From contig CAIXKO010000623.1 in assembly GCA_903919925.1 (NCBI GenBank), forward strand, positions 1-60,972: a stretch of DNA of 60,972 bases, in the 5' to 3' direction. Source of the stretch: an uncultured Bacteroidota bacterium. Its GTDB lineage: Bacteria > Bacteroidota > Bacteroidia > Bacteroidales > UBA12481. The notes below the pieces were generated by a model. The model made no database searches and was not told the DNA's origin. It saw only the letters and a program-made list of their open reading frames with translations. Each line of letters starts with the position of its first letter. Position 1 is the first letter of the stretch. Below are positions 1-47,806 of this stretch, one piece after another. Position numbers and translations under genes: made by a program.

Positions 1-1
1 C

Positions 2-556
2 GAGCTGGGCACGTTTCCCTGGCAGATGAGCCTGGGAATGAAGGGAATGACTATCAAACAGAATGAAGGAACCGCGGGGTGGAGCCTCGAACTGGCTATA
101 CCCTGGGATTCAATCCAATCGGTGAACCCCAACAAAGTGGCTATCGGCGAGGGAACGGAGATCGGATTCAACGTATATTTCTGCGACCAGGACGATCCGG
201 CAGTTGCAGGCACCACACGTACCAAGCTGAACTGGATATTTGGGGCAACGGCTAATCCGGTGGATTTCGGCACCCTGGTACTGAAAGGATCAACCGGAAT
301 TGATCCCACACCGGCCGGCAACGGATTAAACCTCTTGGTTTATCCGAATCCTGCAAATGGTATCCTGAATATTTCGGCGAACGAAATTTCGGGGATCGAG
401 ATATACAATACTCTGGGCTCAAAGGTGTATTCCGATCTGAACGTTAAGCCAAAGACCGCAAGAATCGATGTTTCGGAATTCGCTAAGGGTAACTATATTT
501 TACGTGTGACTGACCGGAAAGGAAAATCGGAAACTCAAAAATTTATTATCAACTAA
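2..556 (+). CDS. C-terminal part of a secreted CBM9-like sugar-binding protein with T9SS C-terminal sorting domain (5' end outside window)
   Basis: The reading frame is open from the window edge; the ORF-track start at 26 is an internal Met. The tail LLVYPNPANGILNISANE...GNYILRVTDRKGKSETQKFIIN fits the T9SS CTD (Por_Secre_tail) pattern. The preceding part (LAIPWDSI..., FGTLVLKG) resembles the end of the CBM9-like modules of the next ORF. Confidence 0.6.
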   Translation, partial: ELGTFPWQMSLGMKGMTIKQNEGTAGWSLELAIPWDSIQSVNPNKVAIGEGTEIGFNVYFCDQDDPAVAGTTRTKLNWIFGATANPVDFGTLVLKGSTGIDPTPAGNGLNLLVYPNPANGILNISANEISGIEIYNTLGSKVYSDLNVKPKTARIDVSEFAKGNYILRVTDRKGKSETQKFIIN

Positions 557-2957: not shown

Positions 2958-5009
2958 ATGGTTACGGGAATGATACGACTGACCGCATTAAGAACGGTAA
3001 TATTTCTGACCCTGCATTTGCTATTTGCCTGTAAAGGGTTATCGGAAGGCTGGTACTTTTCAAATACAGGAGATGACCGCTTTTCAGGAAAATCTCGTGA
3101 TACCCCCTGGGCGACCCTCGACAGGCTCAATACGCAGGAATTGAAGCCTGGTGACTCGCTGTTTTTCAGGCGGGGTGATATCTTCAGGGGACAATTAATA
3201 CTGAGATATTCAGGTATTCCGGGTAATCCCATTTTCATAGGCACTTATGGCTCAGGTGATGCGCCTGTATTTTCCGGAACAATACCTGTACAAAAATGGC
3301 AGAAGTATAACGACCGGATCTTTTCAGCAGCTGTGAATTCTCCCGTCCGGTCGGTTTACATTGATCAGGTGATGGCAATTAAGGCTCGCTATCCTAACAC
3401 CGGTTTTCTGACCATAGATAAAGGAATTGGCCGGGATGGGCTGGCCGATGAGTCGCTCAGGGAGGAGGGCGGGTACTGGAAGGGTGCAACTGTCAGGATC
3501 AGAACCATAGACTGGGTGTATGAAGTAAGAAAAGTATCATCCTACAAAAAGGGTGAAATACGGTTCGGAAAACATGCCGGTTATCCGGTAGAACAGGGAT
3601 ATGAGTACCGGTTTTCGCCGGATCAGAATCAAACCATGTATGATATCCAGCCGGGTTACGGATACTATCTGGAAGATAAATTCGAACAGTTGGATGCTCC
3701 TGGTGAATGGTATTTTGATCAAAAGGAAAACAGGCTGTTTATTATGGCGGATACGGCATCGCTCATCGAGGCGGGTGTGTTTGATTATGGGGTAAAGTTT
3801 GAAAATGAGATTCATGATATTGTAATTCAGGGGATTGTTCTCGAAAAGTACACCGGGGCAGGTACATACAGCGCTTACCCGGTTTGGAATTTGGATATTC
3901 GGGATAATGTATACAGGAATATGGATGGTTCCGGGATACGGCTCGATGGAATTCCTACCCACTGCACGATTTCCAGCAACCGGATGGACCGGATTAACTC
4001 GAGGGCGATTTCCCTGATGCGGGCGGTTGATTGCACCGTCACCGGCAATCAGATATCGCATACCGGCCTGATCAGGGGCTATGGATTAAGTGGTGTCAAT
4101 GGCGCCTCAGCGATCTCCATGCCAAACCTTGAAACCCAGGTGCAATCGGAGCCCTTTGCGCATAATAACCTGATTCAGTTCAACACCATCGATAGTTGCG
4201 GTTATGTAGGTATCCGGGTGGATGGACACGATAACACCATAATCAATAATGTGATCAGCAATTGCATGCTCACACTGAACGATGGGGCGGGAATTTATTG
4301 TTTCGCAAGACAAACCGGGGTAACCTTTAAAAATACCATCCAAAATAATATAGTTATCAATATTATTGGTGATAATACGGGTACGCCGGGCAATTCATTA
4401 ATAGCAAAAGGAATCTATCTTGATAACTATTCACATGAAAATATGGTGGAGGGAAATACCATTATCAATGCCCGTTCGGCCGGAATATTGGTCAATGACG
4501 GGTCGAACAGAAACAAAATCCTCAACAACAACCTGTTTGGAAACAATGCCGGGATTTCGTTTGCAGAATGGCGGAGTGTTGGACAGAATTACGGAAACGA
4601 AGTCAAAGGAAATTCGGTTATCTGTGCAAAAGCTTCCCAAAAGGCAATAGACCTGATTAATCATATTTCAAGTGAAATGAAGCCAGCCATTTTTGAAAAT
4701 AATTTTTACTGCAATTTTTATGATCAGTATTTCTTCAGAATCCTGACTAATCATAAAATTTACCGGAATACCAGTGAAATGTCGTTTGATGTCTGGAAAG
4801 ACAGGACGAGGCAAGATGGTACGAGCAAGTCTCTGAATCCTGGGGATTTGGTGAAATATCCGGGGGGAGCGATTATACTTTATAATGAGGGGAAGATTGA
4901 AAAAGAGTATTCAATTAAGGAAAAAAAATATTATTATATTGATGGGAAAAGGGCGGGGGAGAGTATTACTTTGGAGCCTTTCAGGTCGGTAATATTGTTG
5001 GTGGAATAG
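2958..5009 (+). CDS. Right-handed parallel beta-helix repeat protein, probable lipoprotein
   Basis: N-terminus ...FLTLHLLFACKG is signal/lipobox-like. Beta-helix rung motifs: NVISNCMLTLNDGAGIYCF, NNIVINIIGDN, EGNTIINARSAGILVNDGS, NNNLFGNNAGISF. The first ~130 aa are colinear with 33987..36107 (PGDSLFFRRGDIF / PGDEVLFHCGQIF; ARYPNTGFLTIDKG / ARIPATGFFPIEKG). Confidence 0.7.
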   Translation: MVTGMIRLTALRTVIFLTLHLLFACKGLSEGWYFSNTGDDRFSGKSRDTPWATLDRLNTQELKPGDSLFFRRGDIFRGQLILRYSGIPGNPIFIGTYGSGDAPVFSGTIPVQKWQKYNDRIFSAAVNSPVRSVYIDQVMAIKARYPNTGFLTIDKGIGRDGLADESLREEGGYWKGATVRIRTIDWVYEVRKVSSYKKGEIRFGKHAGYPVEQGYEYRFSPDQNQTMYDIQPGYGYYLEDKFEQLDAPGEWYFDQKENRLFIMADTASLIEAGVFDYGVKFENEIHDIVIQGIVLEKYTGAGTYSAYPVWNLDIRDNVYRNMDGSGIRLDGIPTHCTISSNRMDRINSRAISLMRAVDCTVTGNQISHTGLIRGYGLSGVNGASAISMPNLETQVQSEPFAHNNLIQFNTIDSCGYVGIRVDGHDNTIINNVISNCMLTLNDGAGIYCFARQTGVTFKNTIQNNIVINIIGDNTGTPGNSLIAKGIYLDNYSHENMVEGNTIINARSAGILVNDGSNRNKILNNNLFGNNAGISFAEWRSVGQNYGNEVKGNSVICAKASQKAIDLINHISSEMKPAIFENNFYCNFYDQYFFRILTNHKIYRNTSEMSFDVWKDRTRQDGTSKSLNPGDLVKYPGGAIILYNEGKIEKEYSIKEKKYYYIDGKRAGESITLEPFRSVILLVE

Positions 5010-5043
5010 TTTGAATATTAGATGGATTTGTCAAAAAATAATT

Positions 5044-6042
5044 TTAACATCCCATTGACTTTGATTCTCCGATCTTTGATAAAATGGCTTGCGACAACAA
5101 TTTGAAATCCTGATAAGAGCGTAATACAGCCTGATAATGAGCCCCAATGGCTCCATCAGCTGGTTTTAATGCGAAAATTGGTTTTCTTGCTTCCATAGCC
5201 ATTGGGATTAAGCTGTGATAATGCTTTAATACAGCCAGGCAATTCTCATCATTCTCAACTTTCTTTTCAGAGGCAACCGCTGTTTCCAAAACATATTTTT
5301 CGAATACTTCAGGAATCCTGTTTGCCCACTTCATATAGGATTGAACAGGCCTGCTCTCTTTAATACCATGTTGCATAACAACATAACCCAGTGGTTTAAT
5401 CAAACCATCAGGCAACGACATATCCAAAACCCGATTTCTATTAAACCGGTCTGACCATTCGGCTTTCCATGTGCTTAAACGGTTTCCCAGGTTTCTCAAG
5501 CCTTGCAGTGAAAATAAGTCAGCCGCCATAGGCACAACCACATAATCAGCTGAAATAAGAGTAGCCCGGTTTAATGCACCAAAATTCGGACCCACATCAA
5601 TTATGCAATATTCTGCTCCGTACTGCTCGGTTTCGTTTAGAATAATACGGTAAAATGATGATACAATCCGAAAGGCTGCTTCATCTCCATCGACACATTT
5701 ACTCCAGTTTGAACTGAGTTTGTCTTCAAAGAGGGATAATTCCAGGTCTCCTGCCAACAAGCCAATATTTGGAGCAACCTCATGAATTTTCACGCGTGCA
5801 ATATCGCCAATACCTCTGTCTAATGGCTTTATTCCGGATAGTAAAGTTTCGCGGTTCGATTCCTGGCTATATATTCTTTCCAGCTCATCGTCTGGTAAAA
5901 ACATGGAGGTAAGGTTAGCCTGGGGATCCAAATCAACGGCCAGGCAGTTGTACCCCAATTCGGCGAGCATATAGGTAAAATGATAAACGAGAGTTGTTTT
6001 ACCCACACCTCCCTTGTTATTGAAAAAAATGATTGTTTTCAT
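5044..6042 (-). CDS. ParA/MinD-type deviant Walker A ATPase (332 aa, extended C-terminus)
   Basis: FNNKGGVGKTTL deviant Walker A at residues 7-18, AVDLDPQANLT, and IIDVGPNFG Walker-B-like segment. Its ATG overlaps the stop of the upstream gene (TAATG at 6040-6044, minus strand). Confidence 0.85.
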   Translation of the reverse strand: MKTIIFFNNKGGVGKTTLVYHFTYMLAELGYNCLAVDLDPQANLTSMFLPDDELERIYSQESNRETLLSGIKPLDRGIGDIARVKIHEVAPNIGLLAGDLELSLFEDKLSSNWSKCVDGDEAAFRIVSSFYRIILNETEQYGAEYCIIDVGPNFGALNRATLISADYVVVPMAADLFSLQGLRNLGNRLSTWKAEWSDRFNRNRVLDMSLPDGLIKPLGYVVMQHGIKESRPVQSYMKWANRIPEVFEKYVLETAVASEKKVENDENCLAVLKHYHSLIPMAMEARKPIFALKPADGAIGAHYQAVLRSYQDFKLLSQAILSKIGESKSMGC

Positions 6043-7220
6043 TACCTTTTGAATATTTTCACTAAAAATGAGGTTGGTTGATTTGTTAAAAATTCCGGCT
6101 CAGGATTTCCGTTTTTCTTAAGAGCAGCTAATGCCGCTTTTACCCCTATGTTAAAACCGTTAACATATCCTAAATTTTTTGCAGCCTCTGAAACGGCCGG
6201 ATTTCGATAATCGTTTTCATTTGGAAAATTCTCCGGTCTGGCCTTACCATAAAGTCCACCCGCATTCGATATCTCAATACGATTGGAGAATTCATAGAAT
6301 TTTACGGGAGCATTTGACTGATAATCCCTATGGATGACAGCATTATAGAGCAATTCCTTAATTGCGCGCAATGGATAACTGAACACATAATCACCCCCGA
6401 GTTCAGGTAGTACCATTTTTACGATATTTGCCTTTATAAACTCATCCATTTGACCCATTTGGGTAGTTAAATCACCATCGAAACGGTATTCAAACTCAAA
6501 GTCACTCGCTTCGTCCCCACCGGCAAACCTAACATACTGTACATAACTCCCGGGAATAAAAAAACGAGGATTATTACCAAACATTAGAATACCTGCATAG
6601 GTTGGACAATCTTCCTTTAAATCAAAAATTTTTAGCGAAGCGAGTTGTTGTTTAAGTTCCCGATGATTATCAGCCAGGGTTTCCGCATCAATGGCAGAGG
6701 GCAAATACCGCAGCTTGAATAATTCAATACTGATATCATCAAGATTGCTTCCTTTACACGGCCAGGCATCGAAAGTACGGGCAAATGCTGAACGTTTTTC
6801 GCTTAGGATTCTCTCTTCTGCTTCATTGGCTGTTCCTTTTTGCGGACCAACCCGAATGCACACTTTACCTTTATATCTTACGGGTGGCAGAAAATGAGGT
6901 TGAACCTCTACTACAGCAATTTCACCATCCGGATAAGTAAACTTAGAGACGGTAAGTGCCGGCGGGGGAACAATCCGGCCATCCGTTCGGAAATCGAGTA
7001 AAAATTGCAGAAGCTTTTCATTTACACTCATTCCTGATCTTGAGCCATTATCATTCACTCCAACCAACAGGTATCCCGGTAGATTGTGATTTGGCAGATC
7101 GTTGGCAAAGGAGCAAATTGCCTCGCCGAATTTATCCGTATCGGTTCGGGAAATGGTTTTCTCAACCCTATCCTGCTCCAATTGCGAGACTAATTTGTCT
7201 ATTTCTTCTTGTGGTATCAT
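6042..7220 (-). CDS. AlbA_2 (divergent AAA / Schlafen-related) + HATPase_c_4-like ATP-binding putative nucleic-acid-binding protein
   Basis: N-terminal ...DKFGEAICSFANDLPNHNLPGYLLVGVNDNGSRSG... fits the AlbA_2 core pattern. C-terminal LLYNAVIHRDY...IEISNAGGL...YRNPAVSEAAKNLGYVNGFNIGV fits the RecG-like C-terminal HATPase_c_4 pattern. Confidence 0.75.
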   Translation of the reverse strand: MIPQEEIDKLVSQLEQDRVEKTISRTDTDKFGEAICSFANDLPNHNLPGYLLVGVNDNGSRSGMSVNEKLLQFLLDFRTDGRIVPPPALTVSKFTYPDGEIAVVEVQPHFLPPVRYKGKVCIRVGPQKGTANEAEERILSEKRSAFARTFDAWPCKGSNLDDISIELFKLRYLPSAIDAETLADNHRELKQQLASLKIFDLKEDCPTYAGILMFGNNPRFFIPGSYVQYVRFAGGDEASDFEFEYRFDGDLTTQMGQMDEFIKANIVKMVLPELGGDYVFSYPLRAIKELLYNAVIHRDYQSNAPVKFYEFSNRIEISNAGGLYGKARPENFPNENDYRNPAVSEAAKNLGYVNGFNIGVKAALAALKKNGNPEPEFLTNQPTSFLVKIFKR

Positions 7221-7379
7221 TTTTTTCCTGCGAATTTACGGTAAGTTACGTAAAACTTGCACGAGCTTCGACACTAAAAGAGCATCCTTTGTCGCAAAAC
7301 AACCTTAGGAAAATCAGTTGATTCGTTGTAATTCTTTATGGATAGTATTATTGCATAGGTAATGACCATATAATCTGCT

Positions 7380-7646
7380 TTATAGTTGTTTAATCAATTC
7401 TTTTGCCTTATCAACGGTATACGCAGTATCAATGGCTTTTTTATCAAAAACCATAAAGTACAGAAAATCTTTTCCGGCAAGTTCAGCCCACTTGTTACCC
7501 AAACGACATTTTGCTGCACTGTCGGAATTATCACGGTCATCGCCTTTGGTTTCTACAATGAAATCCGGGTAGTGGTTGGATTTAAAGCCATTGATATAAT
7601 CTAAAGAGAATTTTTTCGCATCATTATTTGAAGAATCGGCTGACCG
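7380..7646 (-). pseudogene. C-terminal remnant (88 codons, no start) of a restriction-type helicase/nuclease (ResIII-family-like PD-(D/E)xK tail)
   Basis: My own minus-strand translation gives RSADSSNNDAKKFSLDYINGFKSNHYPDFIVETKGDDRDNSDSAAKCRLGNKWAELAGKDFLYFMVFDKKAIDTAYTVDKAKELIKQL*. The Y-PDF-[IV]-x-E-x-KG motif plus K..W tail is as found at C-termini of type III res-subunit-like proteins. An in-frame TGA lies at 7647-7649 and no Met start is present. Not in the ORF track. Confidence 0.45.
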
Positions 7647-7722
7647 TCAAATTAAATCTGTAACAAAGTTTAAAACACCAGATATTTCATCACAAATAAA
7701 TTTAAGATTTGCTTGTTCGTAA

Positions 7723-8490
7723 TCATCCTATGGCATACAAAGGAAGGTTTGTCATCCATGATTCTTCTTTGTAGTCCGACAAGGAGGTCCGGATTGCATT
7801 TGAAGGTTTATACTTTTCACAAAACAGCTTAAAACTTCTGGCTTCCAGGTTTTCTCCCGATTTTACTTCTATCGGAATAACTTCACCTTCTTCCTGAATG
7901 ACAAAATCGACTTCAGAGGTGCTCCGTTCATTTGTCCAATAACCGATATAGCGTTCGCTGTTCAGTCGCAGCTGCTGCATCACATATTGCTCTGTGAGCG
8001 CTCCCTTAAACTCGGTAAAGATTTCATCGCCCTCGATGATCGTTCGTACGTTAAGTCCTGCCATAGCACCAAGCAAGCCAACGTCGTGAAGGAACAATTT
8101 AAAGACAGAAATGTCCTGATAGGCAGCAATCGGGATTCCCGGTTTTGATACACGGTGGCATTTCAGGAGCAGGCCACAATCTGTCAGCCATTGGATAGCC
8201 AGTTCGAAATCTTTGGCACGGGCTCCCTGCCGGATAAGCCCATATACAAATTTCTTATTTTCTTTGGCTAATTGAGAGGGAATGCTTTGCCAAACCATCC
8301 GGATCCGGGGAACGGTTTCATTGGGCGCATGTTTGGAGAAATCGCCTTCATACGAATTTAGTATCCTGTTTTGGATACGGCGAACCAGTTGCCAATCCCG
8401 GGTTTTAACAAAGGCATCCACTACCTCGGGCATTCCTCCCACATAAAAATAATAGTGGAGATATTCTTTAAGTTTCTGATTGAATTTCGT
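7723..8490 (-). pseudogene. 5'-truncated AAA-ATPase/DUF4143 family gene (C-terminal ~255 codons only)
   Basis: ...KEYLHYYFYVGGMPEVVDAFVKTRDW..., then the DUF4143-like part, then a PD-(D/E)xK-like end (EVDFVIQEEGEVIPIEVKSG). The frame is closed by TAG at 8491-8493. Only ~90 nt remain before the next gene, so the ~180-aa N-terminal AAA domain typical of this family is missing. Confidence 0.6.
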
Positions 8491-8579
8491 CTAAAACGAT
8501 CAGCGTATCATCTGCCGTTATTGTGGTTTGAGCATATATCTGCAGCACGGTTATGATCCGTTCAATATCAAAATCGATT

Positions 8580-11405
8580 TCACCTGATCAGAATAGTTTT
8601 CACCAGACGTTCCTTATCTGCCTGAACCGATACAAAGTAAACACCCGCCTGCAGGCCGGATAAATTGATCGTAAAGATATTTTGTCCCCTGACCAACGGG
8701 TGAAGCGATGTACCCACCACACGCATCAGGTTGTCGAATATCAGAATTTGCCCGTCGGAATTGCCGGGGGAATAATAATCCAAAAAGATATGATCCTGAG
8801 CAGGATTTGGGTAAACTTTCAGATTTGCGGAATTTTCCCGGCTTTCCCCGATACCGGATCCCTGATCAATGACTTTGATGACCAGCGTATCCTTTAACAA
8901 CAGTACTTTAGCAATGATCAGGACAGTATCGGCAATCTTGTTTGCGGTATATTTTCCTTTACTTGTCATCTGGCCTCCGCCGACCGCCGACCAGCCAAAG
9001 GTGGGCTGAACACGCAATACGTTTTTTTGCTGGTCGTAAGCAGCTGCCTTCATTTGCAACGATTGCCCCAGGATTAGGACACTGTCTCTTGAAGTAATCT
9101 TTATTGAAGTCAGTTTCTGGGGCACTTCGATCACATAAATTCTGGTGTTAGTGAGTTCGCCGGATGTTGCGGTAAGCATAACCGGGTATTTTCCCACATT
9201 GAGCAAACTATCCACGCTGATAGTCAGCATAAACGACTGGTTTGGTTCTATTGTGGCCACTGGCAGTTCCACGGTTATTCCGTTGGGGATTTCACCGGGC
9301 GAGAGGCTAACCGTTCCCTTAAAACCGCAATAGGGAAGAACCTGTACCGGGAATGTCCATGTGGCTTTTACTCCATATCCGGTACGGAGAAAAAAGGCTG
9401 AATCTGAAATGGCGAATTCAGGTTTCAGGTTACCGGCACCCGCTTTCCACGCCGGGATCCCGGATTCATAACATCCAAGGTCGGTTCTGTTGCCACTGAT
9501 TGCATCGCTGAAAGGAAGGTATTCACCGGTGTTGACAGCCGCGGTAAATCCGGCTTTCAGGGTATAATCCATATTTTGATAATCAGTAAAAAAACTGGAA
9601 TAATCCGCTTCGGTGTTCAGGTTTATGTTGGAAAGAACCCAGGGTCCCCCGTCGGCTTCCGTAAGTGCACTGGTGGTAATGTTGTTTTGCACATTGAAAT
9701 CCTTTCCGAAATTCCCGACACCATTTTGAATTCCAGGTTTCCCGGTTTTATCGGCAAGGGCGGTATTATTGAAAATCAAAACAGGCCCGTTGATCAGGTC
9801 GCTGCGGTAGTTGATCTGGATGGGGCGATCGATGTTCCACATCAGGTTGTGGTCGATGATAACATCCTTTCCAAAATCGCAATACATGCCGATCGATAAG
9901 AAATTATTGGAATTATAGATGATGTTATGATCCCAGCGGGCCCAGTTCCCGGCGATTCCAAATATATCGACAGCCCCGCTGTCATGAGTTTTCAGCATAA
10001 AATCATGAATCACATTATGATGAACCCTCGCCCTTGCCGGCACCGATCGCTCGGAGTTGGAGTTTTGCTCAATACTGATGGCTTGCTGCGGGGTATTGTA
10101 AATCGTGTTGTAGGCAATCTCCTCATCCCTGCCAAACAATCCCCTGCCGCCGGTGTTCAGGACTCCCGTTTCGGTACTATTATAATTACAGTCGTACAGA
10201 GTATTATTCAGGACCTTGTTGTTTTTCCCCATCACGCAGATAGCGGCAGCAGCACTGTATCGAATGGTACAATTCTTTATTACGCTGTTGATTCCGCTTA
10301 AAATGATGCCCGACCTCGAATCCCACTGAACCTGGTAGTCGCCGGCCTGATTGGTGAAGTGAGTGACATAGAGTGCATGAATTCCGTCGATTATATTACC
10401 ATTTGCGCTTGTTGCCTGAGATAGTCGTGTGTTTGCATAAAGATCAGAAATAATGGAAGTTGCAAACAAATTTAAACCGATAACTGAAGTATTGGCAAAA
10501 GTGATTTTTGAGGGTTCAGGACTGATTCCCCAGACTCTTTTTTTAGCTTCGATTAAATTATTCTGACCGATTGCGTTAGCCGGAGGATTTTCAGCTGGCA
10601 TCCGCACAAACAGGGTATCACCGTTTTTCCACCATTCATTGGGCTTCAGGTACGATGCAATTCCACCGCTGGCCGCCACAGCCGGTTCATACGGATTGAA
10701 CAGGTAATACTCCTGATTGGGCCCCATGCCCCATGGTTCATCCCCGATACGACCGCTTATTTTTCCTGAAACAACGATCCGTCCCGGGAAAGTTGAAAGC
10801 ACCTTACCGGTCCAGCCCTGGCCATCCCATCCGGTACCATCCTTTGAGCGCGACAGGTTGATCCAGATTTCCGATCCGTCCCAACGGCCCGCATACTCCT
10901 TAAAATCTGCATCATAGATTACCGTATTATCCCCGTCGAAAGCAATATCATCCGAATATGCATTAGTTGGCAGAACCAGGTCGGCCGTGTTCTGCGGCCA
11001 GCGCGCAAGGTGCATCATATTTCCATCGAGAAACACCTGGTTGCTCTGGCCCCCTTCGGTAACATTCCAATTCATGCGCGATTTATATACGGATCCGGAA
11101 ACAGCCTGCCAATCGAGCAGAGCTTCTGTGCCATTGATGTTTGCCTTTTCCTGATTGTAGGCCATAAAGGTGACCCCGTCGCTTTTTACAATCACCTGCT
11201 CGCGGTAGGTGCCTGCACGGATCATTACGGTATCACCGGCTACCGCTAAATCAGTAGCTTCCTGTATTGTTTTGAACGGGCTGGTAAATGAGCCGTCACC
11301 CAAAACTGCTGCGGACTGATCAACGTAGATTACCCGGGCCAGAGAGGCGATCGAGAAACAGGTTGCTAAGAGTAATAAAAGGCCTTTTAAAAAATAGTTG
11401 TTCAA
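8580..11405 (-). CDS. Secreted right-handed beta-helix protein with Big_2 Ig-like domain and T9SS CTD (unknown glycan-active family)
   Basis: Signal peptide MNNYFLKGLLLLLATCFSIASLA. Cap motif GDGSFTSPFKTIQEATDLAVAGDTVMIRAGTYRE. Rung motifs NNTLYDCNY, YNTIYNTP, HHNVIHDF, DHNIIYNSNN, DHNLMWNI. Big_2-like segment ITSRDSVLILGQSLQMKAAAYDQQKN. Tail LKVYPNPAQDHIFLDY...GVYFVSVQADKERLVKTILIR. The first ~550 aa are colinear with 54701..58462. Confidence 0.75.
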   Translation of the reverse strand: MNNYFLKGLLLLLATCFSIASLARVIYVDQSAAVLGDGSFTSPFKTIQEATDLAVAGDTVMIRAGTYREQVIVKSDGVTFMAYNQEKANINGTEALLDWQAVSGSVYKSRMNWNVTEGGQSNQVFLDGNMMHLARWPQNTADLVLPTNAYSDDIAFDGDNTVIYDADFKEYAGRWDGSEIWINLSRSKDGTGWDGQGWTGKVLSTFPGRIVVSGKISGRIGDEPWGMGPNQEYYLFNPYEPAVAASGGIASYLKPNEWWKNGDTLFVRMPAENPPANAIGQNNLIEAKKRVWGISPEPSKITFANTSVIGLNLFATSIISDLYANTRLSQATSANGNIIDGIHALYVTHFTNQAGDYQVQWDSRSGIILSGINSVIKNCTIRYSAAAAICVMGKNNKVLNNTLYDCNYNSTETGVLNTGGRGLFGRDEEIAYNTIYNTPQQAISIEQNSNSERSVPARARVHHNVIHDFMLKTHDSGAVDIFGIAGNWARWDHNIIYNSNNFLSIGMYCDFGKDVIIDHNLMWNIDRPIQINYRSDLINGPVLIFNNTALADKTGKPGIQNGVGNFGKDFNVQNNITTSALTEADGGPWVLSNINLNTEADYSSFFTDYQNMDYTLKAGFTAAVNTGEYLPFSDAISGNRTDLGCYESGIPAWKAGAGNLKPEFAISDSAFFLRTGYGVKATWTFPVQVLPYCGFKGTVSLSPGEIPNGITVELPVATIEPNQSFMLTISVDSLLNVGKYPVMLTATSGELTNTRIYVIEVPQKLTSIKITSRDSVLILGQSLQMKAAAYDQQKNVLRVQPTFGWSAVGGGQMTSKGKYTANKIADTVLIIAKVLLLKDTLVIKVIDQGSGIGESRENSANLKVYPNPAQDHIFLDYYSPGNSDGQILIFDNLMRVVGTSLHPLVRGQNIFTINLSGLQAGVYFVSVQADKERLVKTILIR

Positions 11406-13307: not shown

Positions 13308-16300
13308 ATGACCTGCAAGACTGACATTGAATCAGAGTCCGATACTGTGAGGAAAATCAAGGTGAGATTAGGTTTGATCTTACTGATTTCCCTCCTGTCT
13401 GTTCTGCCTGGCATTTCCCAGGATGCCGGTTATGAGTTTTACCGTCCGGCTCAGAAAGAATTATTTGACCAGGGAGTAAACTGCCTGTACAGAGATAGTC
13501 TGGGTTTTCTGTGGATCGGGACCAATCAGGGGCTTTACCAGTTTGACGGATACGACTACAAAGCTTATAAGTATGATCCCTTCAATGATCATTCCCTATG
13601 CAACAATTATGTAACCTGTATCAGCGAAGACAGGCAGGGGCACCTGTGGGCGGGCACCTTTAACGGGTTAAGCCGGTATGATCGCAATACCGACAGTTTC
13701 ACGAATTACCTGGAGGAGAATAAAGACTCAAATTCGGTTACCAATGATCAGATTAAATATTTCCTCAACGATAAAAGAAACACTTTCTGGGTAGCCACCA
13801 ATCATGGAATTAACCGGTATGATCAGCAGCTTGACCGCTTTGAAAAATTCCCCGGTTATTTACCTCCTGATGTAAAGATTGGCCGGAGCATTGTGAGCCT
13901 GGCAGAGGATAATTCCGGAAATATATGGATCGGAACCTGGAATGCGGGATTGATTCGGTTCAATTACGAAAAAGGGGAGTTTACCAGGTTTACGCACCAA
14001 AATGACAATGCTAATTCCTTACGGGACAATGAGGTATCCACCTTAGCGTTCATCAATGATTCTATTTTGTGGATCGGACATTACAATCAGGGCATTGGTG
14101 AGATGAACATCAGATCGTTGAAAGTGGATTACAGCCTGTTCGATTCCAGCAGAGATATCCTTAAGCCGGGGATCAGGCGGCTGCTCAGTGATCACAATTC
14201 GGATATCTGGATTACCAATTCCGATAATCTGGTCCTTTTTAAAGGAAAAAGCAGGCAATTCCAGGTGATCAGCAAACCAAAGGCCGATGAGGGTATTATC
14301 ACTCCGCATAAACCAATGTTCCTTTATGAGGACCGCGAACATATCATTTGGCTGACCACCTCTGAAGAAGGTATTTTATACCATCATCCCTATGCTAATA
14401 ATTTTAAACAGTATTACCGGAAATTGCCAAAGGAGAGCCCCGGGGTTGTCCAGAACTATGTAAAAGCTTTTGTTGAGGATCCCTTTGGCAACCTCTGGAT
14501 AGCAACTTTTGACAACGGACTGCTGAAATATTCGAAAGACCGAAAGAGCTATAAGAGATTCAGGGCAGGCTCCAATGACACCGGAAAATCAATCCTCAGC
14601 AACCGGCTTACCCATCTTTTCCTGGACCGGAATGGAAGGCTGTGGGTTGCTACGGAGAACGGAATATCTGTCATCAATAGTAATACCGATGAGATTGAGA
14701 ATAATATAATCAAACAGACAAAGGAACAGGATGGATTATTCGTGAGTTTCACAGGTCAGACCTATCAGGACAGAAGGGGAAATTACTGGATCATCAATCA
14801 GGAGGGGCTTGATTGTTTTAAGCCAGCCACAAATACTTGGGTGCATTATAACCAAAGTGATCTGGGGGGATTCAGCCACTATAAGTTCACCTCGATAACC
14901 GAAGACAGCGATGGAAATCTGTGGTTTGGTACTTTTAACGGTTTGAACAGGTATAATCCGGAGTCGGGTAAAATAACCCAGTTCAGGCATAATCCCAAAG
15001 TTCACAACTCCATCAGCAATTCCTATATACAAACGGAATTGTTTACCGACAGTAAAGGCAGGATGTGGGTTGGAACGCAGGATGGATTAAATCAATACAT
15101 TAAAGAAACAAATTCATTCATCAATTATTCCTCTTTGCCTGGGATGTTAAGTAATTCCATTACGGGGATACTGGAATCCGATCCTGACCATTTATGGATT
15201 ATTTCAAATACCGGATTATCGAACTTTAATGTAATTACCAATGAAATGGTAAATTATGGCCCTGCGGAAGGGCTTGGAATTAATTCAGAATCCCATTATA
15301 AGTCACCCCGTGGATTCCTGTTCTTTGGAGGAGCACATAACGATTATTTCACTTTTCATACCGACAGCATTAAAGGAAATTCGCTGGTTCCGCCGGTTTA
15401 TGTAACTAATTTTCTTTTATCGAATAAATCATTATCCATTTCGGGAGAAAAACTGATTACTCCGTTAAAAGAAAATATAATCACCTCACATGCAATTCAA
15501 TTAAAATATAATCAAAACTCATTTGGGTTTGAATTTACCGCATTAAATTATTTATTGCCGGAAAAGAATCAATACGCTTATAAACTGGCAGGATTTGAAA
15601 AGAACTGGAATTTTGTCAGCTCCAACCGGCGGTTTGCAAACTACACCAACCTGAAGCCGGGAAAATACGTGTTCAATGTAAAGGCCAGCAATAATGATTT
15701 TATCTGGAATGAGACTGGTGATCAGATTACGGTAATCATTAAACCACCCTATTGGGGAACCATTTGGGCCTATCTGGTTTATAGCCTGGTAATGATTTCG
15801 CTGATTTTAATGGCCCGCTATCTGACCATTAAGCAAACAAAATTAAAAAGCTCATTTGAGCTGGAGCATCTGCTAAGGGAGCGGGAGGAGGAGGAGCACA
15901 AACTCCGGATCAGCTTTTTTACCAACATTTCCCATGAATTGCGAACGCCGCTCACCCTAATTTCAGGTCCGTTAAAACAGATCATACAGTCATCAAAGTC
16001 CTCTCCGCTAAGCGAGGAAGTTACCAACTATCTCAGCCTGATCAACCGAAATGTTAAGCGGTTGACTGAACTCACCAACCAGTTACTCGACTTCAGGAAA
16101 ATAGAATCGGGCAGCATGCGTCTTGAAATTTATCAGTCCGATCTGGTTCAGTTTATCCGGGAGATAACGGAAACCTTTGTCAGCAGTTCCAGAAAAAAGC
16201 AATTGCGTGTGGAGTTTATACCGGAAATGGAATCCCTGTCTGCCTGGTTTGATCCGGACAAATTAGATAAGATTCTGACCAATTTAATCAGGAATGCTGT

Positions 16301-17528
16301 AAAATTCACATTCGAAGGCTCCATAACGATTCGTTTAACAGAGATTTCCAGCGGAAGTTCAAACACCGGCAGACGGGTTGAAATTTCAGTTTCCGATACC
16401 GGTATCGGAATCAGTGAAGATCAGATCGATCAGATATTCAGCCCGTTTCATCAGGTGGATCGCTCCTATCAGCGCAAAAATGAAGGAACCGGACTTGGAC
16501 TTGCATTGGTTAAAAGTCTGGTACAACTATACAACGGAGAGATCAGCGTGAGCAGCCAGGTTGGAAAAGGAAGCTGCTTTACGGTGCGGTTGCCGGTTGA
16601 CAGGGAAAGTATGCCGGATAACAGGATTATCACGCCCAATGAACTTATTCTATCCGATAATGATGCGTCAGATGAAGATATCCCAGATGAAAAACAAGAG
16701 ATATCTGCTTCCGTGCCTGCGTTAGGAAAAAGCGAAAAACCTCTGATACTGATCGTTGAAGATAATCAGGATATGCGATTTTACATCCGGAAAATTCTTT
16801 TGGATTCATTTACCATTATTGAAGCAACCCATGGCAGGGAAGGGCTGCAAATGGCATTGGTGGCAATCCCCGATCTCATTATCAGCGATGTTATGATGCC
16901 TGAACTTTCGGGTACGGAAATGGCCCAACAGCTTAAATCCGATGAACGGACGAGCCATATTCCGATTATCCTCCTCACTGCACTCGCCGGTACCGGACAA
17001 AAAATAAAGGGCCTCACCATTGGCGCCGATGATTATATAACCAAGCCTTTCAGTGAAGAAATCCTGCTTTTGAAAACGGAGAATCTTATTAAAAACCGGC
17101 AAAAACTTAAGGAGCACCTGATTAAGCAAATCGGGGTGGCGGCCAGGCAGAATTTGGCTACAGGTATTGAACCCAACGAGCTTCCAATGGAGAACATGGA
17201 TGAGAAGTTTCTTCGTAAAGCACTGAATATCATTGAGAATCATATTGAAGAATCGGAATTCGGAGTGGAGACACTGGCCAGGGAGATTGGAATGGAATCG
17301 TCGACTTTATATAAAAAGATGATGGCCCTGATTGATATGCCACCGGGCGAATTCATCCGGGATATTCGTTTGAAGCGTGCCGTTCAGCTGATCGGCCAGA
17401 AACACCTGACTATTTCAGAGATTTCCTTTATGACCGGGTATAATAATCCCAAGTATTTTACCAAGGTATTCAGGAAGCATTATGGGATGTCGCCGACTGA
17501 ATACAGGGCGATGAAATTTGGAAGTTAG
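13308..17528 (+). CDS. Hybrid two-component system sensor kinase / response regulator with AraC-type HTH (HTCS, PUL regulator)
   Basis: Periplasmic beta-propeller repeats (LWIGTNQGLYQFD, LWAGTFNGLSRYD, FWVATNHGINRYD, IWIGTWNAGLIRF, LWFGTFNGLNRYN...). TM helix WAYLVYSLVMISLILMARYL. H-box FFTNISHELRTPLT. HATPase GTGLGLALVKSLVQLYNGEI. Receiver LILIVEDNQDMR...DLIISDVMMPELSG. AraC HTH tail GYNNPKYFTKVFRKHYGMSPTEYR. Confidence 0.9.
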   Translation: MTCKTDIESESDTVRKIKVRLGLILLISLLSVLPGISQDAGYEFYRPAQKELFDQGVNCLYRDSLGFLWIGTNQGLYQFDGYDYKAYKYDPFNDHSLCNNYVTCISEDRQGHLWAGTFNGLSRYDRNTDSFTNYLEENKDSNSVTNDQIKYFLNDKRNTFWVATNHGINRYDQQLDRFEKFPGYLPPDVKIGRSIVSLAEDNSGNIWIGTWNAGLIRFNYEKGEFTRFTHQNDNANSLRDNEVSTLAFINDSILWIGHYNQGIGEMNIRSLKVDYSLFDSSRDILKPGIRRLLSDHNSDIWITNSDNLVLFKGKSRQFQVISKPKADEGIITPHKPMFLYEDREHIIWLTTSEEGILYHHPYANNFKQYYRKLPKESPGVVQNYVKAFVEDPFGNLWIATFDNGLLKYSKDRKSYKRFRAGSNDTGKSILSNRLTHLFLDRNGRLWVATENGISVINSNTDEIENNIIKQTKEQDGLFVSFTGQTYQDRRGNYWIINQEGLDCFKPATNTWVHYNQSDLGGFSHYKFTSITEDSDGNLWFGTFNGLNRYNPESGKITQFRHNPKVHNSISNSYIQTELFTDSKGRMWVGTQDGLNQYIKETNSFINYSSLPGMLSNSITGILESDPDHLWIISNTGLSNFNVITNEMVNYGPAEGLGINSESHYKSPRGFLFFGGAHNDYFTFHTDSIKGNSLVPPVYVTNFLLSNKSLSISGEKLITPLKENIITSHAIQLKYNQNSFGFEFTALNYLLPEKNQYAYKLAGFEKNWNFVSSNRRFANYTNLKPGKYVFNVKASNNDFIWNETGDQITVIIKPPYWGTIWAYLVYSLVMISLILMARYLTIKQTKLKSSFELEHLLREREEEEHKLRISFFTNISHELRTPLTLISGPLKQIIQSSKSSPLSEEVTNYLSLINRNVKRLTELTNQLLDFRKIESGSMRLEIYQSDLVQFIREITETFVSSSRKKQLRVEFIPEMESLSAWFDPDKLDKILTNLIRNAVKFTFEGSITIRLTEISSGSSNTGRRVEISVSDTGIGISEDQIDQIFSPFHQVDRSYQRKNEGTGLGLALVKSLVQLYNGEISVSSQVGKGSCFTVRLPVDRESMPDNRIITPNELILSDNDASDEDIPDEKQEISASVPALGKSEKPLILIVEDNQDMRFYIRKILLDSFTIIEATHGREGLQMALVAIPDLIISDVMMPELSGTEMAQQLKSDERTSHIPIILLTALAGTGQKIKGLTIGADDYITKPFSEEILLLKTENLIKNRQKLKEHLIKQIGVAARQNLATGIEPNELPMENMDEKFLRKALNIIENHIEESEFGVETLAREIGMESSTLYKKMMALIDMPPGEFIRDIRLKRAVQLIGQKHLTISEISFMTGYNNPKYFTKVFRKHYGMSPTEYRAMKFGS

Positions 17529-19987: not shown

Positions 19988-20005
19988 CTTGTTTTCCTTT
20001 ATCGA

Positions 20006-47767: not shown

Positions 47768-47806
47768 TTTTTGTAATTTTAATTGATCAAACATGATTAA
47801 ACAGAA

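What the first reader, a model, noticed from the sequence alone, without database searches (positions are those of the whole stretch)
5044..7220. Translationally coupled ParA-like ATPase + AlbA_2/Schlafen-like ATP-binding protein: candidate uncharacterised two-gene (defence-type) module
**Seen in sequence.** Two minus-strand genes overlap in TAATG (6040-6044), which implies co-translation. The upstream protein combines an AlbA_2 ('divergent AAA', Schlafen-related nucleic-acid-binding) N-terminus with a HATPase_c_4/RecG-like C-terminus. The downstream protein is a deviant-Walker-A ParA/MinD ATPase (NNKGGVGKTT, DLDPQANLT) with an extra ~80-aa C-terminal region.

**Context.** No ParB, centromere-like repeat, replication gene or plasmid gene is nearby, so a partition role is not supported. 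The pair sits in a ~3.5-kb stretch that interrupts glycan-utilisation genes and looks AT-richer. My hand counts gave 33% and 38% GC in 60-nt samples at 6061-6120 and 6301-6360, against 48% at 9001-9060. It is adjacent to decayed restriction-type and DUF4143 ATPase genes, which is the typical signature of a defence islet.

**Inference.** From memory I know no named anti-phage or TA system made of this pair. That is recollection, not a search.
Basis: partly seen in the sequence, partly recalled or inferred. Interest (0 to 1): 0.75.

Follow-up and report, generated by a model that had tools for sequence, protein, structure and literature searches.

The report
Schlafen nuclease with ParA-like ATPase partner
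Two overlapping genes, a Schlafen-type RNase fused to a GHKL ATPase and a special ParA-like ATPase, form a cassette found together in many bacterial phyla and often nested inside known anti-phage systems, so it is very probably an untested two-gene anti-phage module.

Summary
Two intact minus-strand genes overlap in TAATG: 6042-7220 (SLFN_AlbA_2 + GHKL ATPase, a "Schlatpase") and 5044-6042 (a ParA/Soj-fold ATPase).

The pairing is not chance. In 80 of 80 related loci from more than 10 phyla, Schlatpase sequence lies directly upstream of the ParA-like gene. It is a 72-aa remnant in one locus and cut by contig ends in five. 66 of 82 junctions are 4-nt overlaps. No third gene is conserved. One natural Schlatpase-ParA fusion occurs on 15 contigs.

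The cassette moves between contexts:
- between PglX and PglZ of type 1 BREX;
- between HmaA and HmaB;
- beside MADS-like genes and a type IIG RM enzyme;
- also among housekeeping genes.

In the window it is an orphan copy beside a DUF4143 ATPase pseudogene and an 88-aa remnant of a restriction-type helicase.

Sister Schlatpases (about 50% identical) carry a fused C-terminal wHTH and have no ParA gene. More distant ParA-like relatives pair with SIR2 or are fused to RES.

Best reading: an abortive-infection-type module with a Schlafen RNase effector and a ParA-like nucleotide switch or sensor. The effector family and its BREX embedding are published. The ParA partner is not named in PADLOC v2.0 or the papers I searched. 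I class it as a new variant of a known kind.

The parts
6042..7220 (-). Schlatpase gene (392 aa): N-terminal Schlafen/AlbA_2 nuclease domain, middle linker region, C-terminal GHKL (HATPase_c_4) ATPase. It has no C-terminal HTH.
   Evidence: ORF. Pfam hits. 75-orthologue conservation. The GHKL part matches PDB 3LMM at E=4e-15.
6831..7172 (-). SLFN_AlbA_2 domain (aa 17-130). The putative active site starts just upstream of it: E15-x4-E20, then D57. A CSFAN 'Schlafen box' lies at aa 36-40.
   Evidence: Pfam 3.5e-14. E15 and E20 are invariant in 75/75, D57 is D/E in 69/75, and F38, N40 and D41 are invariant. Position +2 after E20 is T in 64/75 and K in 10/75.
6057..6311 (-). GHKL ATP-binding domain (aa 304-388 by Pfam). 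The N-box NAxxH (N293, A294, H297) lies just upstream. It also has a G-rich lid (G321, G322, L323, G325) and a YRNP motif (338-341).
   Evidence: Pfam 1.9e-12. Invariant residues.
6040..6044 (-). TAATG stop/start overlap, implying translational coupling.
   Evidence: Sequence. In relatives, 66/82 junctions are 4-nt overlaps, 10 have a 1-nt gap and 2 are 1-nt overlaps of the window's type.
5044..6042 (-). ParA/Soj-fold ATPase of the DIP2308 (PDB 3PG5) clade, 332 aa.
   Evidence: Pfam AAA_31/CbiA. The profile matches 3PG5 over its full length at E=3.6e-44. AF2 pLDDT is 90.3 and the top Foldseek hit is 3PG5, followed by Soj/ParA.
5992..6021 (-). Deviant Walker A, NNKGGVGKTT (aa 8-17), with signature Lys10 and Lys15.
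   Evidence: F6, F7, N8, N9, K10, G11, V13, G14, K15 and T16 are at least 97% conserved in 83 orthologues. D37 and D39 (Walker A') and D149, G151, P152 (Walker B) are also conserved.
7221..7379 (-). 159-nt non-coding leader upstream of the pair. I presume it holds the promoter.
   Evidence: No ORF. The sigma-70 scan is uninformative for a Bacteroidota-type genome. This assignment is an inference.
7380..7646 (-). 88-aa C-terminal remnant of a restriction-type DEAD/DEAH (Res-like) helicase-nuclease gene.
   Evidence: Translation. tblastn gives 67.5% identity to the C-terminus of a helicase gene next to a DNA methyltransferase gene on a Pontibacter plasmid. There is no Pfam hit.
7723..8584 (-). 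DUF4143 / AAA_14-type ATPase pseudogene (PADLOC PDC-S01-like), 5'-truncated and frameshifted.
   Evidence: DUF4143 at 1.2e-37. PDC-S01 positions 193-429 of 439 only. A Walker-B remnant 'TLIVLDEIQ' lies in another frame.

Best explanation
The two genes form a self-contained, horizontally mobile two-gene anti-phage (abortive-infection-type) cassette.

**Effector (inferred).** The upstream protein is a prokaryotic Schlafen nuclease joined to a GHKL ATPase (a 'Schlatpase'). [quoted passage not shown] That would assemble an active Schlafen tRNase, which shuts down translation.

**Partner (inferred).** The downstream protein is a ParA/Soj-fold ATPase of the DIP2308 clade and has nothing to do with partition. 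It is made in step with the nuclease through translational coupling. It takes the place that a fused C-terminal winged-helix DNA-binding domain occupies in the single-gene sister proteins. It would act as the nucleotide-dependent switch or sensor. It either holds the nuclease off until infection is sensed, as an antitoxin would, or licenses it when its ATP-dimer or DNA-bound state is disturbed.

**What is shown.** Domain identities, conserved catalytic and ATP-binding residues in both proteins, strict gene pairing, a natural fusion, and nesting inside known defence systems.

**What is inferred.** RNase activity, complex formation, the direction of regulation, and the trigger.

**In this window.** The cassette is an intact orphan copy in a 3.5-kb islet. 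Its other defence-type genes, a Res-like helicase and a DUF4143 ATPase, have decayed.
For: **Pairing.** Schlatpase sequence lies immediately upstream on the same strand in 80/80 genome loci with ParA identity of 51-80%. These come from Bacteroidota, Verrucomicrobiota, Planctomycetota, Proteobacteria, Nitrospirota, Thermoanaerobaculia, Omnitrophota, an archaeal MAG and others.
- Pairing is still seen at 34-36% ParA identity.
- 66/82 junctions are 4-nt overlaps.
- No third conserved gene appears.
- Pairwise identities of the two proteins correlate across loci (Pearson 0.86).

**Rosetta-stone fusion.** P0375 (731 aa) is SLFN_AlbA_2 + HATPase_c_4 + ParA-like. It is found on 15 contigs, with independent Logan and JGI assemblies among the places shown.

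**Guilt by embedding.**
- PglX-[pair]-PglZ in type 1 BREX: L001, L003, L005, L006.
- HmaA-[pair]-HmaB: L041, L073, L039. HmaA is upstream in four further loci.
- MADS-like genes (mad3, 1300-aa protein), PLD-helicase and type IIG RM neighbours.

**Active-site conservation.**
- Schlafen: E15 and E20 in 75/75, D57 in 69/75, and the SAFAN-like box.
- GHKL: N-box, G-lid and YRNP invariant.
- ParA: K10, K15, D37, D39 and D149 at least 97% conserved.

**Published mechanism of relatives.**
- Schlafen tRNases give phage defence.
- GHKL ATP binding drives tetramerisation and tRNA cleavage in SLFN-pAgo.
- Schlafen + minimal His-kinase + wHTH proteins are embedded in BREX and BREX-related systems in at least 1017 taxa.

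**Modularity.**
- Sister Schlatpases about 50% identical carry a fused wHTH and lack the ParA gene.
- DIP2308-clade ParA relatives pair with SIR2 or are fused to RES.
- A different Schlatpase pairs with a TrlF AAA-like ATPase inside a type I RM operon.
Against: - There is no experiment on this pair or on any member.
- The canonical E-x4-(D/E)-x-K lysine is T22 in the window protein and in 64/75 orthologues. A K/R at +1 is present in 53/75. Nuclease competence is therefore not certain.
- In my reading of Perez Taboada et al., HisKinase-type pSlfn genes were among the seven constructs tested singly in E. coli, and the two that gave robust defence were of other architectures.
- By my tally, only about a fifth of the roughly 78 distinct loci show a recognised defence gene next to the pair. 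Many neighbours are housekeeping genes such as MetH and aminotransferases.
- In the window the pair has no intact defence neighbour.
- One locus (L039) keeps ParA while the Schlatpase gene is reduced to a remnant. A strict toxin/antitoxin reading would predict this, but a strict sensor/effector reading would not.
Confidence: 0.6

Rival explanations
1. A toxin-antitoxin-type addiction module. The Schlatpase is an RNase toxin and the ParA-like ATPase is its antitoxin. The main role would be to stabilise the islands, defence operons or mobile elements that carry it, not to sense phage.
For: - Anantharaman et al. 2013 predicted exactly this logic for HEPN (MAE_18760, sometimes fused to Schlafen) + ParA/Soj dyads.
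- The operon is tight and translationally coupled.
- The pair occurs scattered among housekeeping genes.
- L039 keeps ParA but has lost the nuclease, which is the viable order of loss for a TA pair.
- The window copy stays intact while its neighbours decayed.
Against: - The gene order, putative toxin first, is atypical for type II TA.
- The natural fusion P0375 joins 'toxin' and 'antitoxin' in one chain.
- Sister proteins work as single genes with an HTH.
- TA and abortive-infection roles are not mutually exclusive, so this differs from the main reading mostly in emphasis.
Confidence: 0.2
2. An accessory or backup subunit pair that works only together with a host methylation-based system such as BREX, Hma or MADS. 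An example would be a second effector fired when phage anti-restriction proteins block the main system. On this reading the orphan copy in the window would be inert.
For: - The pair is repeatedly nested between core genes of BREX and Hma.
- The NAR 2026 survey proposes Schlafen RNases as 'backup suicidal effectors' of BREX.
- PARIS, embedded in the same kinds of loci, senses the anti-restriction protein Ocr.
Against: - Most loci have no such system nearby.
- The host systems are of several unrelated kinds.
- Both window proteins are identical and intact on at least 11 metagenome contigs without a partner system.
Confidence: 0.1
3. A regulatory pair. The AlbA_2/GHKL protein, often annotated as 'transcriptional regulator' or 'RecG-like', would act with a ParA-type DNA-binding ATPase to control expression of neighbouring genes, with no nuclease role.
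For: - More than 90% of Schlatpase C-terminal tails carry an HTH, and the sister proteins here have a wHTH.
- The canonical active-site lysine is replaced by T22.
- ParA/Soj proteins bind DNA (established knowledge of the family).
Against: - The acidic residues of the nuclease site and the SAFAN-like box are invariant across phyla.
- This subfamily lacks the HTH.
- The neighbours are too varied for a dedicated regulator.
- Characterised relatives are tRNases.
Confidence: 0.06
4. A DNA partition or positioning system of a plasmid or integrative element, with ParA in its classical role.
For: The deviant Walker A and the Soj-like fold. NCBIfam gives weak, sub-threshold hits to RepA/ParA partition models.
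Against: - No ParB and no centromere-like repeats.
- The sites are chromosomal and lie between glycan genes.
- All NCBIfam partition hits fall far below their cut-offs.
- The constant partner is a Schlafen nuclease, and in relatives it is SIR2 or RES.
Confidence: 0.02

Closest known systems
Prokaryotic Schlafen defence proteins (pSlfn; Perez Taboada et al., Nat Microbiol 2026) and the 'Schlatpase' SLFN + GHKL supradomain (SLFN-pAgo preprint, bioRxiv 10.64898/2026.05.29.728809)
   Same: - The same two domains, PF04326 + PF13749, in the same order.
- Conserved acidic active-site residues and a SAFAN-like box.
- Conserved GHKL ATP-binding motifs.
- Found in defence islands and near BREX and RM systems.
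   Different: - There is no fused sensor: no pAgo, Ig-like, DUF262 or HTH domain. A separate, translationally coupled ParA-like ATPase gene is always present instead.
- The +2 lysine of E-x4-(D/E)-x-K is usually threonine.
- None of the papers I read mentions a ParA partner.
BREX-embedded 'backup' Schlafen RNases (Schlafen + minimal His kinase + wHTH; NAR 2026, PMC12839542) and Hma/BREX/RM-embedded candidate systems ('guilt by embedding', Payne et al. bioRxiv 2024)
   Same: Relatives of the pair sit between PglX and PglZ, and between HmaA and HmaB. These are the positions where embedded defence cassettes such as PARIS, BrxU and HEC-01..09 are found.
   Different: - This is a two-gene form without wHTH.
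- It is not among HEC-01..09 and is not matched by any PADLOC v2.0 PDC model.
- In the window it is not embedded in any intact system.
HEPN (MAE_18760 family) + ParA/Soj ATPase dyads predicted as TA systems (Anantharaman et al., Biol Direct 2013)
   Same: An RNase gene paired with a ParA/Soj-type ATPase gene. Some MAE_18760 proteins are fused to a Schlafen domain. ParA was proposed as the nucleotide-dependent antitoxin.
   Different: The window protein has no HEPN domain and the nuclease here is Schlafen + GHKL. I could not test whether the ParA of those dyads belongs to the DIP2308 clade.
DIP2308 of Corynebacterium diphtheriae (PDB 3PG5), a structural-genomics ParA-like protein of unknown function
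   Same: Full-length sequence match (E=3.6e-44) and the best structural match (Foldseek E=2e-17).
   Different: Only 22-29% identity over the Foldseek alignments. Its function is unknown and I did not examine its gene partners. The best PDB match of the Schlatpase GHKL part, 3LMM, is DIP2311, three locus tags away.
NTPase + effector two-gene defence systems (PARIS AriA/AriB, SIR2-HerA, HEC-02/03, Septu)
   Same: A conserved NTPase is combined with interchangeable toxic effectors. In the DIP2308 clade these are Schlatpase, SIR2 and RES. The gene pairs are tight.
   Different: The NTPase here is a SIMIBI-class ParA/MinD-type ATPase with a deviant Walker A. It is not an ABC/OLD, HerA/FtsK or AAA+ ATPase.

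Membership tests
Prokaryotic Schlafen nuclease / Schlatpase (SLFN_AlbA_2 + GHKL) | SLFN_AlbA_2 domain followed by a HATPase_c_4 (GHKL) domain in one protein | tested here: met
   PF04326 at 17-130 (3.5e-14) and PF13749 at 304-388 (1.9e-12). PADLOC pAgo model PDLC02394 covers 21-340.
Prokaryotic Schlafen nuclease / Schlatpase (SLFN_AlbA_2 + GHKL) | E-x4-(D/E)-x-K nuclease motif with a third acidic residue, and the SAFAN 'Schlafen box' | tested here: inconclusive
   E15 and E20 are invariant (75/75), D57 is D/E in 69/75, and CSFAN(D) has F38, N40 and D41 invariant. The +2 position is T22 in the window and in 64/75 orthologues, K in 10/75. A K/R sits at +1 in 53/75.
Prokaryotic Schlafen nuclease / Schlatpase (SLFN_AlbA_2 + GHKL) | GHKL ATP-binding motifs (N-box Asn, glycine-rich lid) | tested here: met
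   N293, A294, H297, Y300, E316, G321, G322, L323, G325 and Y338-R339-N340-P341 are conserved in at least 97% of 75 orthologues.
Prokaryotic Schlafen nuclease / Schlatpase (SLFN_AlbA_2 + GHKL) | C-terminal HTH tail (reported in more than 90% of Schlatpase tails) | tested here: not met
   The protein ends at aa 392, right after the GHKL domain. Sister proteins of 480-519 aa carry HTH_11, HTH_24 or Fic-like_C.
Prokaryotic Schlafen nuclease / Schlatpase (SLFN_AlbA_2 + GHKL) | tRNA cleavage and phage protection | not testable with these tools
   This needs biochemistry and phage assays.
ParA/Soj/MinD partition-positioning ATPases | Deviant Walker A KGGxGK[ST] with signature lysine, Walker A' Asp and Walker B Asp on a Soj-like fold | tested here: met
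   K10, G11, G14, K15, T16, D37, D39 and D149 are conserved in at least 97% of 83 orthologues. After 3PG5, the next Foldseek hits are Soj/ParA at E of about 1e-12.
ParA/Soj/MinD partition-positioning ATPases | Cognate ParB-type adaptor gene and centromere-like repeats next to parA | tested here: not met
   No such ORF or repeat array in 4500-9000. No conserved third gene in 80 loci. NCBIfam partition models score far below their cut-offs.
DIP2308 (PDB 3PG5) clade of ParA-like ATPases | Full-length homology that includes the clade-specific C-terminal third | tested here: met
   The profile aligns 1-322 to 3PG5 1-347 at E=3.6e-44. 3PG5 is the best structural match. The library holds 474 representative clusters at E<=1e-30.
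BREX / Hma-embedded accessory defence cassette | Located between core genes of a BREX, Hma or similar operon | tested here: not met
   Not met in the window, where the neighbours are pseudogenes and glycan genes. Met in the relatives L001, L003, L005, L006 (BREX) and L039, L041, L073 (Hma).
HEPN-ParA/Soj TA-like dyad (Anantharaman 2013) | HEPN (Rx4-6H) RNase gene paired with a ParA/Soj gene | tested here: not met
   No HEPN family appears among the Pfam hits of either protein. The partner is Schlafen + GHKL. The architecture is analogous only.
Any named system in PADLOC-DB v2.0 | Both proteins matched by the models of one system | tested here: not met
   The ParA gives only a P-loop hit to PDC-M28B (aa 2-41). 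The Schlatpase hits only pAgo and Aga_SIR2 models over the shared SLFN-GHKL region. DefenseFinder was not available.

The most novel reading that the evidence does not exclude
DIP2308-type ParA ATPases would be a widespread, so far unrecognised class of SIMIBI-fold immune switches. A deviant-Walker-A dimer, which normally reads out DNA or partner binding, would serve as the infection sensor for interchangeable suicide effectors. These effectors are the Schlafen-GHKL tRNase (this window), SIR2 NADase, RES NADase and possibly PD-(D/E)XK nucleases. The Schlatpase-ParA cassette would be one member of this class. It would be preferentially lodged inside methylation-based systems (BREX, Hma, MADS, RM) as a tripwire against phage anti-restriction proteins.
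Probability: 0.3. Interest if true: 0.8.

Novelty: new variant of a known kind. Interest (0 to 1): 0.62.

Why it matters
- **Schlatpases are untested as a class.** Schlafen + GHKL proteins are the most common prokaryotic Schlafen architecture: about 53% of pSlfn, and 60,692 proteins in one survey. In my reading of the one study that tried HisKinase-type pSlfn genes singly, the two constructs that protected had other architectures.
- **A required partner may have been left out.** A subfamily that has swapped the fused HTH for an obligate ParA-like partner suggests these proteins need a second DNA- or nucleotide-sensing component. That gives a concrete two-gene construct to test.
- **A new role for ParA/MinD-type ATPases.** The pairing of the same ParA clade with SIR2 and RES effectors points to ParA/MinD-type ATPases as immune switches.
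- **Annotation.** These genes are currently mislabelled 'chromosome partitioning protein', 'BcsQ' and 'RecG helicase'.

Tried and rejected
- **Single-sequence AF2 of the ParA-like protein** gave pLDDT 39 and was unusable. I redid it with a 69-sequence alignment.
- **The sigma-70 promoter and terminator scan** of the islet found fewer promoter-like sites than shuffles and is not applicable to Bacteroidota-type promoters.
- **The repeat search** found only short two-copy chance matches and no centromere-like array.
- **Supplement and paper searches** for 'ParA', 'SIMIBI' or 'MinD' found nothing in the NAR BREX paper, the Schlafen papers or the Hma-embedding paper. Full-text searches pairing Schlafen/AlbA_2/HATPase_c_4 with ParA-like, AAA_31 or CbiA also found nothing relevant.
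- **Pfam on the 88-aa Res-like fragment** gave no hit. tblastn against plasmids resolved it.
- **Partition function rejected:** there is no ParB or parS, and the partners are toxin-like.
- **'BREX subunit' rejected as a general role:** only a few of about 80 loci are in BREX.
- **Two low-identity ParA representatives** were not fully informative. P0504 sits on a 2-kb contig with no Schlatpase gene called upstream, and its partial downstream gene is unidentified. P0446 became informative only after its upstream fragment was translated.
- **P0462 (690 aa)** looked like a second fusion, but its Arg-rich middle looks like out-of-frame translation, so I do not count it.


Full report
**1. What is in the window**

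Two minus-strand ORFs are intact: 6042..7220 (392 aa) and 5044..6042 (332 aa). On the minus strand the junction reads TAATG, so the TAA stop of the first gene shares one base with the ATG of the second.

Pfam places SLFN_AlbA_2 (aa 17-130, 3.5e-14) and HATPase_c_4 (aa 304-388, 1.9e-12) in the upstream protein. It places AAA_31 and CbiA (ParA/MinD type) in the downstream one. NCBIfam gives only sub-threshold partition-protein hits for the ParA-like protein and nothing for the other.

PADLOC v2.0 has no system that covers the pair. The ParA-like protein touches PDC-M28B only over its P-loop. The upstream protein matches the SLFN-GHKL part of a pAgo model and of pAgo-associated SIR2 models.

**2. 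The surroundings**

- The pair lies in a 3.5-kb stretch between a right-handed beta-helix protein gene (2958-5009) and a T9SS-sorted beta-helix protein gene (8580-11405).
- Upstream of the pair is a 159-nt leader.
- Next comes an 88-aa ORF (7380-7646). It is 67.5% identical to the C-terminus of a DEAD/DEAH helicase gene that follows a DNA methyltransferase gene on a Pontibacter plasmid.
- Then comes a DUF4143 ATPase gene that has lost its N-terminal half and carries a frameshift.
- GC content is 41.3% for the pair and 45.2% for the window. That is the 7.5th percentile of equal-sized windows, a modest deviation.
- There is no ParB-like ORF and no repeat array.
- The same islet, with identical Schlatpase and same-length neighbouring genes, is on at least 11 metagenome contigs.

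**3. The pairing is conserved far beyond chance**

- Both proteins have thousands of homologues. The contig lengths of the best hits coincide between the two searches.
- A scan of one genome per species returned 267 relatives of the ParA-like protein. In all 80 loci kept (ParA identity 51-80%, more than 10 phyla including an archaeal MAG), tblastn finds Schlatpase sequence directly upstream on the same strand. It is full-length or nearly so in 74 loci and cut by a contig end in five. In L039 only a 72-aa remnant is left.
- 66 of 82 junctions are 4-nt overlaps and 10 have a 1-nt gap.
- All-against-all clustering of flanking ORFs finds no third conserved gene.
- Pairwise identities of the two proteins correlate across loci (Pearson 0.86).
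- Pairing still holds at 34% and 36% ParA identity (L112, L115).
- P0375 is a 731-aa natural fusion of SLFN_AlbA_2, HATPase_c_4 and the ParA-like domain. It is present on 15 contigs, with independent Logan and JGI assemblies among the places shown, and sits between housekeeping genes.

**4. Where the cassette lives**

- In L001, L003, L005 and L006 it sits between PglX and PglZ of a type 1 BREX operon.
- In L041 and L073 it sits directly between HmaA and HmaB. In L039 HmaB lies further downstream. HmaA is upstream in L046, L054, L064 and L077.
- L024, L027, L031 and L083 have mad3 and/or a related protein of about 1300 aa. L076 has a PLD-helicase. L062 has a type IIG enzyme.
- Other immediate neighbours are unrelated housekeeping genes.

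This pattern is a self-contained mobile cassette that often lodges inside methylation-based defence operons. It is the pattern used as 'guilt by embedding' to discover HEC systems. The window copy looks like the survivor of a decayed restriction locus.

**5. What the two proteins are**

*The upstream protein* is a member of the Schlafen + GHKL 'Schlatpase' supradomain.
- That supradomain counts 60,692 proteins in one survey, and more than 90% of C-terminal tails carry an HTH.
- HisKinase and HisKinase-HTH forms make up 53% of prokaryotic Schlafens.
- Other bacterial Schlafens cleave tRNA and cause abortive infection.
- Schlafen + minimal His kinase + wHTH proteins were reported next to or inside BREX and BREX-related loci in at least 1017 taxa and proposed as backup suicidal effectors.

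In 75 orthologues of the window protein, E15 and E20 (E-x4-E), the CSFAN box, the N-box, the glycine-rich lid and YRNP are invariant, and D57 is D/E in 69/75. The canonical +2 lysine is threonine in 64/75.

*The ParA-like protein* keeps the deviant Walker A (K10, K15), Walker A' (D37, D39) and Walker B (D149) in at least 97% of 83 orthologues. It also has a set of clade-specific conserved residues in its C-terminal third.
- Its profile aligns end to end with PDB 3PG5 (DIP2308 of C. diphtheriae, function unknown; E=3.6e-44). Soj/ParA match mainly the P-loop and Walker B regions.
- An AF2 model from a 69-sequence alignment (pLDDT 90.3, pTM 0.90) has 3PG5 as its top structural match, followed by Soj/ParA/McdA/MinD.
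- The clade has 474 representative clusters at E<=1e-30 in a 1.84-billion-protein library.

**6. Modularity on both sides**

- *Sister Schlatpases.* Proteins 48-53% identical to the ParA-linked ones, as close as ParA-linked orthologues from different phyla are to each other, are 480-519 aa long. They end in a wHTH (HTH_11, HTH_24, Fic-like_C) and have no ParA gene. In L095 the gene follows HsdR-HsdM. The ParA gene therefore occupies the place of the fused DNA-binding tail.
- *A different ATPase partner.* A more distant HTH-less Schlatpase overlaps a 'TrlF family AAA-like ATPase' gene inside a type I RM operon on IncC plasmids.
- *Different effector partners.* DIP2308-clade ParA proteins 27-30% identical to the window protein are followed, with 4-nt overlap, by a SIR2_2 gene. 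This occurs in Vibrio, Salmonella, Spirosoma, Serratia and Paraburkholderia. Those SIR2 proteins resemble ThsA, Dsr and LmuA SIR2 domains.
- *Fusion and solo forms.* One cluster is fused to a RES domain (P0429). Solo copies occur next to a prophage repressor in E. coli and on plasmids.
- *A published precedent.* A 2013 comparative-genomics paper noted HEPN (MAE_18760, sometimes Schlafen-fused) + ParA/Soj dyads and proposed ParA as an antitoxin.

**7. Interpretation**

The best-supported reading is a two-gene abortive-infection-type module with a Schlafen RNase effector gated by two nucleotide switches. One is its own GHKL domain. The other is a dedicated ParA-like ATPase, made in step with it and probably bound to it.

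- *Shown:* domain identity, residue conservation, strict synteny, the fusion, and embedding in defence systems.
- *Inferred:* RNase activity, complex formation, whether ParA restrains or licenses the nuclease, and the trigger.

The TA-like addiction reading is the main rival and overlaps with this one. A BREX-dependent role, a purely regulatory role and a partition role fit the data less well.

**8. Novelty**

The effector family, its mechanism in a fusion context, and its BREX association are published (2025-2026). An RNase + ParA/Soj dyad was predicted in 2013. I did not find the Schlatpase + DIP2308-type ParA cassette in PADLOC v2.0, in the papers above, or in full-text searches. Nor did I find its strict pairing, its fusion form, its HTH-for-ParA swap, or its nesting in BREX, Hma and MADS-like loci.

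DefenseFinder and closed-access papers could not be checked. I file it as a new variant of a known kind, of moderate-to-high interest and directly testable.

Noticed in passing
L101/L102 5001-6871; L103/L104; L105; L086, L088, L090: DIP2308-clade ParA-like genes 27-30% identical to the window protein are followed, in most cases with a 4-nt overlap, by a SIR2_2 gene in Vibrio, Serratia, Paraburkholderia, Salmonella and Spirosoma. The SIR2 part resembles ThsA, Dsr and LmuA SIR2 domains. The ParA part is not in PADLOC v2.0.
   Followed up: partly
P0429 (545 aa); P0390 (595 aa); from the representatives search: A ParA-like protein is fused to a RES domain (P0429, 6 contigs). Another, with a degenerate Walker A, is fused to an unassigned C-terminal region that contains an E-x-K motif (P0390, 1 contig).
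   Followed up: partly
L089 6029-7105 (E. coli KE47 chromosome, prophage): A solo 358-aa ParA-like gene of the same clade sits right after the XRE-type repressor gene of a lambdoid prophage. This is a typical position for prophage-borne defence genes.
   Followed up: no
L107 2380-6167 (IncC plasmid pNDM102337): A different HTH-less Schlatpase (387 aa) overlaps a 'TrlF family AAA-like ATPase' gene inside a type I RM operon (HsdR-TrlF-Schlatpase-HsdS-AAA-HsdM). The same gene pair is annotated under most of the Klebsiella, E. coli and Yersinia plasmid matches.
   Followed up: partly
L001 4781-8812; L001 3654-4781 and L003 4353-5471: The PglX of one BREX locus (1344 aa) contains a Y1_Tnp / IS200-like domain at aa 404-479. 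A DUF1016/YhcG nuclease gene is also embedded between BrxC and PglX.
   Followed up: no
PDB 3PG5 (DIP2308) and 3LMM (DIP2311): The best solved-structure matches of the two window proteins come from C. diphtheriae locus tags only three apart. This hints at a related ParA-like/Schlatpase neighbourhood there. The locus itself was not examined.
   Followed up: no
L039 9741-10975: Downstream of HmaA, the Schlatpase gene is reduced to a 72-aa remnant while the ParA-like gene is intact. HmaB lies about 4.4 kb further downstream. This is the only case of 80 with a lone ParA.
   Followed up: no
window 7723-8584 and 7380-7646: A DUF4143/AAA_14 ATPase pseudogene (PADLOC PDC-S01-like) and the C-terminal remnant of a Res-like helicase. 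The same decayed state is seen on at least 11 independent metagenome contigs, so it is fixed in this population.
   Followed up: yes
window 13308-17528, 18350-23188, 46097-50911: The rest of the window has a hybrid two-component regulator with an AraC output, identified by domains. It also has two pairs of ORFs (545+1060 aa and 565+1034 aa) whose sizes fit SusD/SusC. These were not domain-checked, but they fit a Bacteroidota-type glycan-utilisation region.
   Followed up: no
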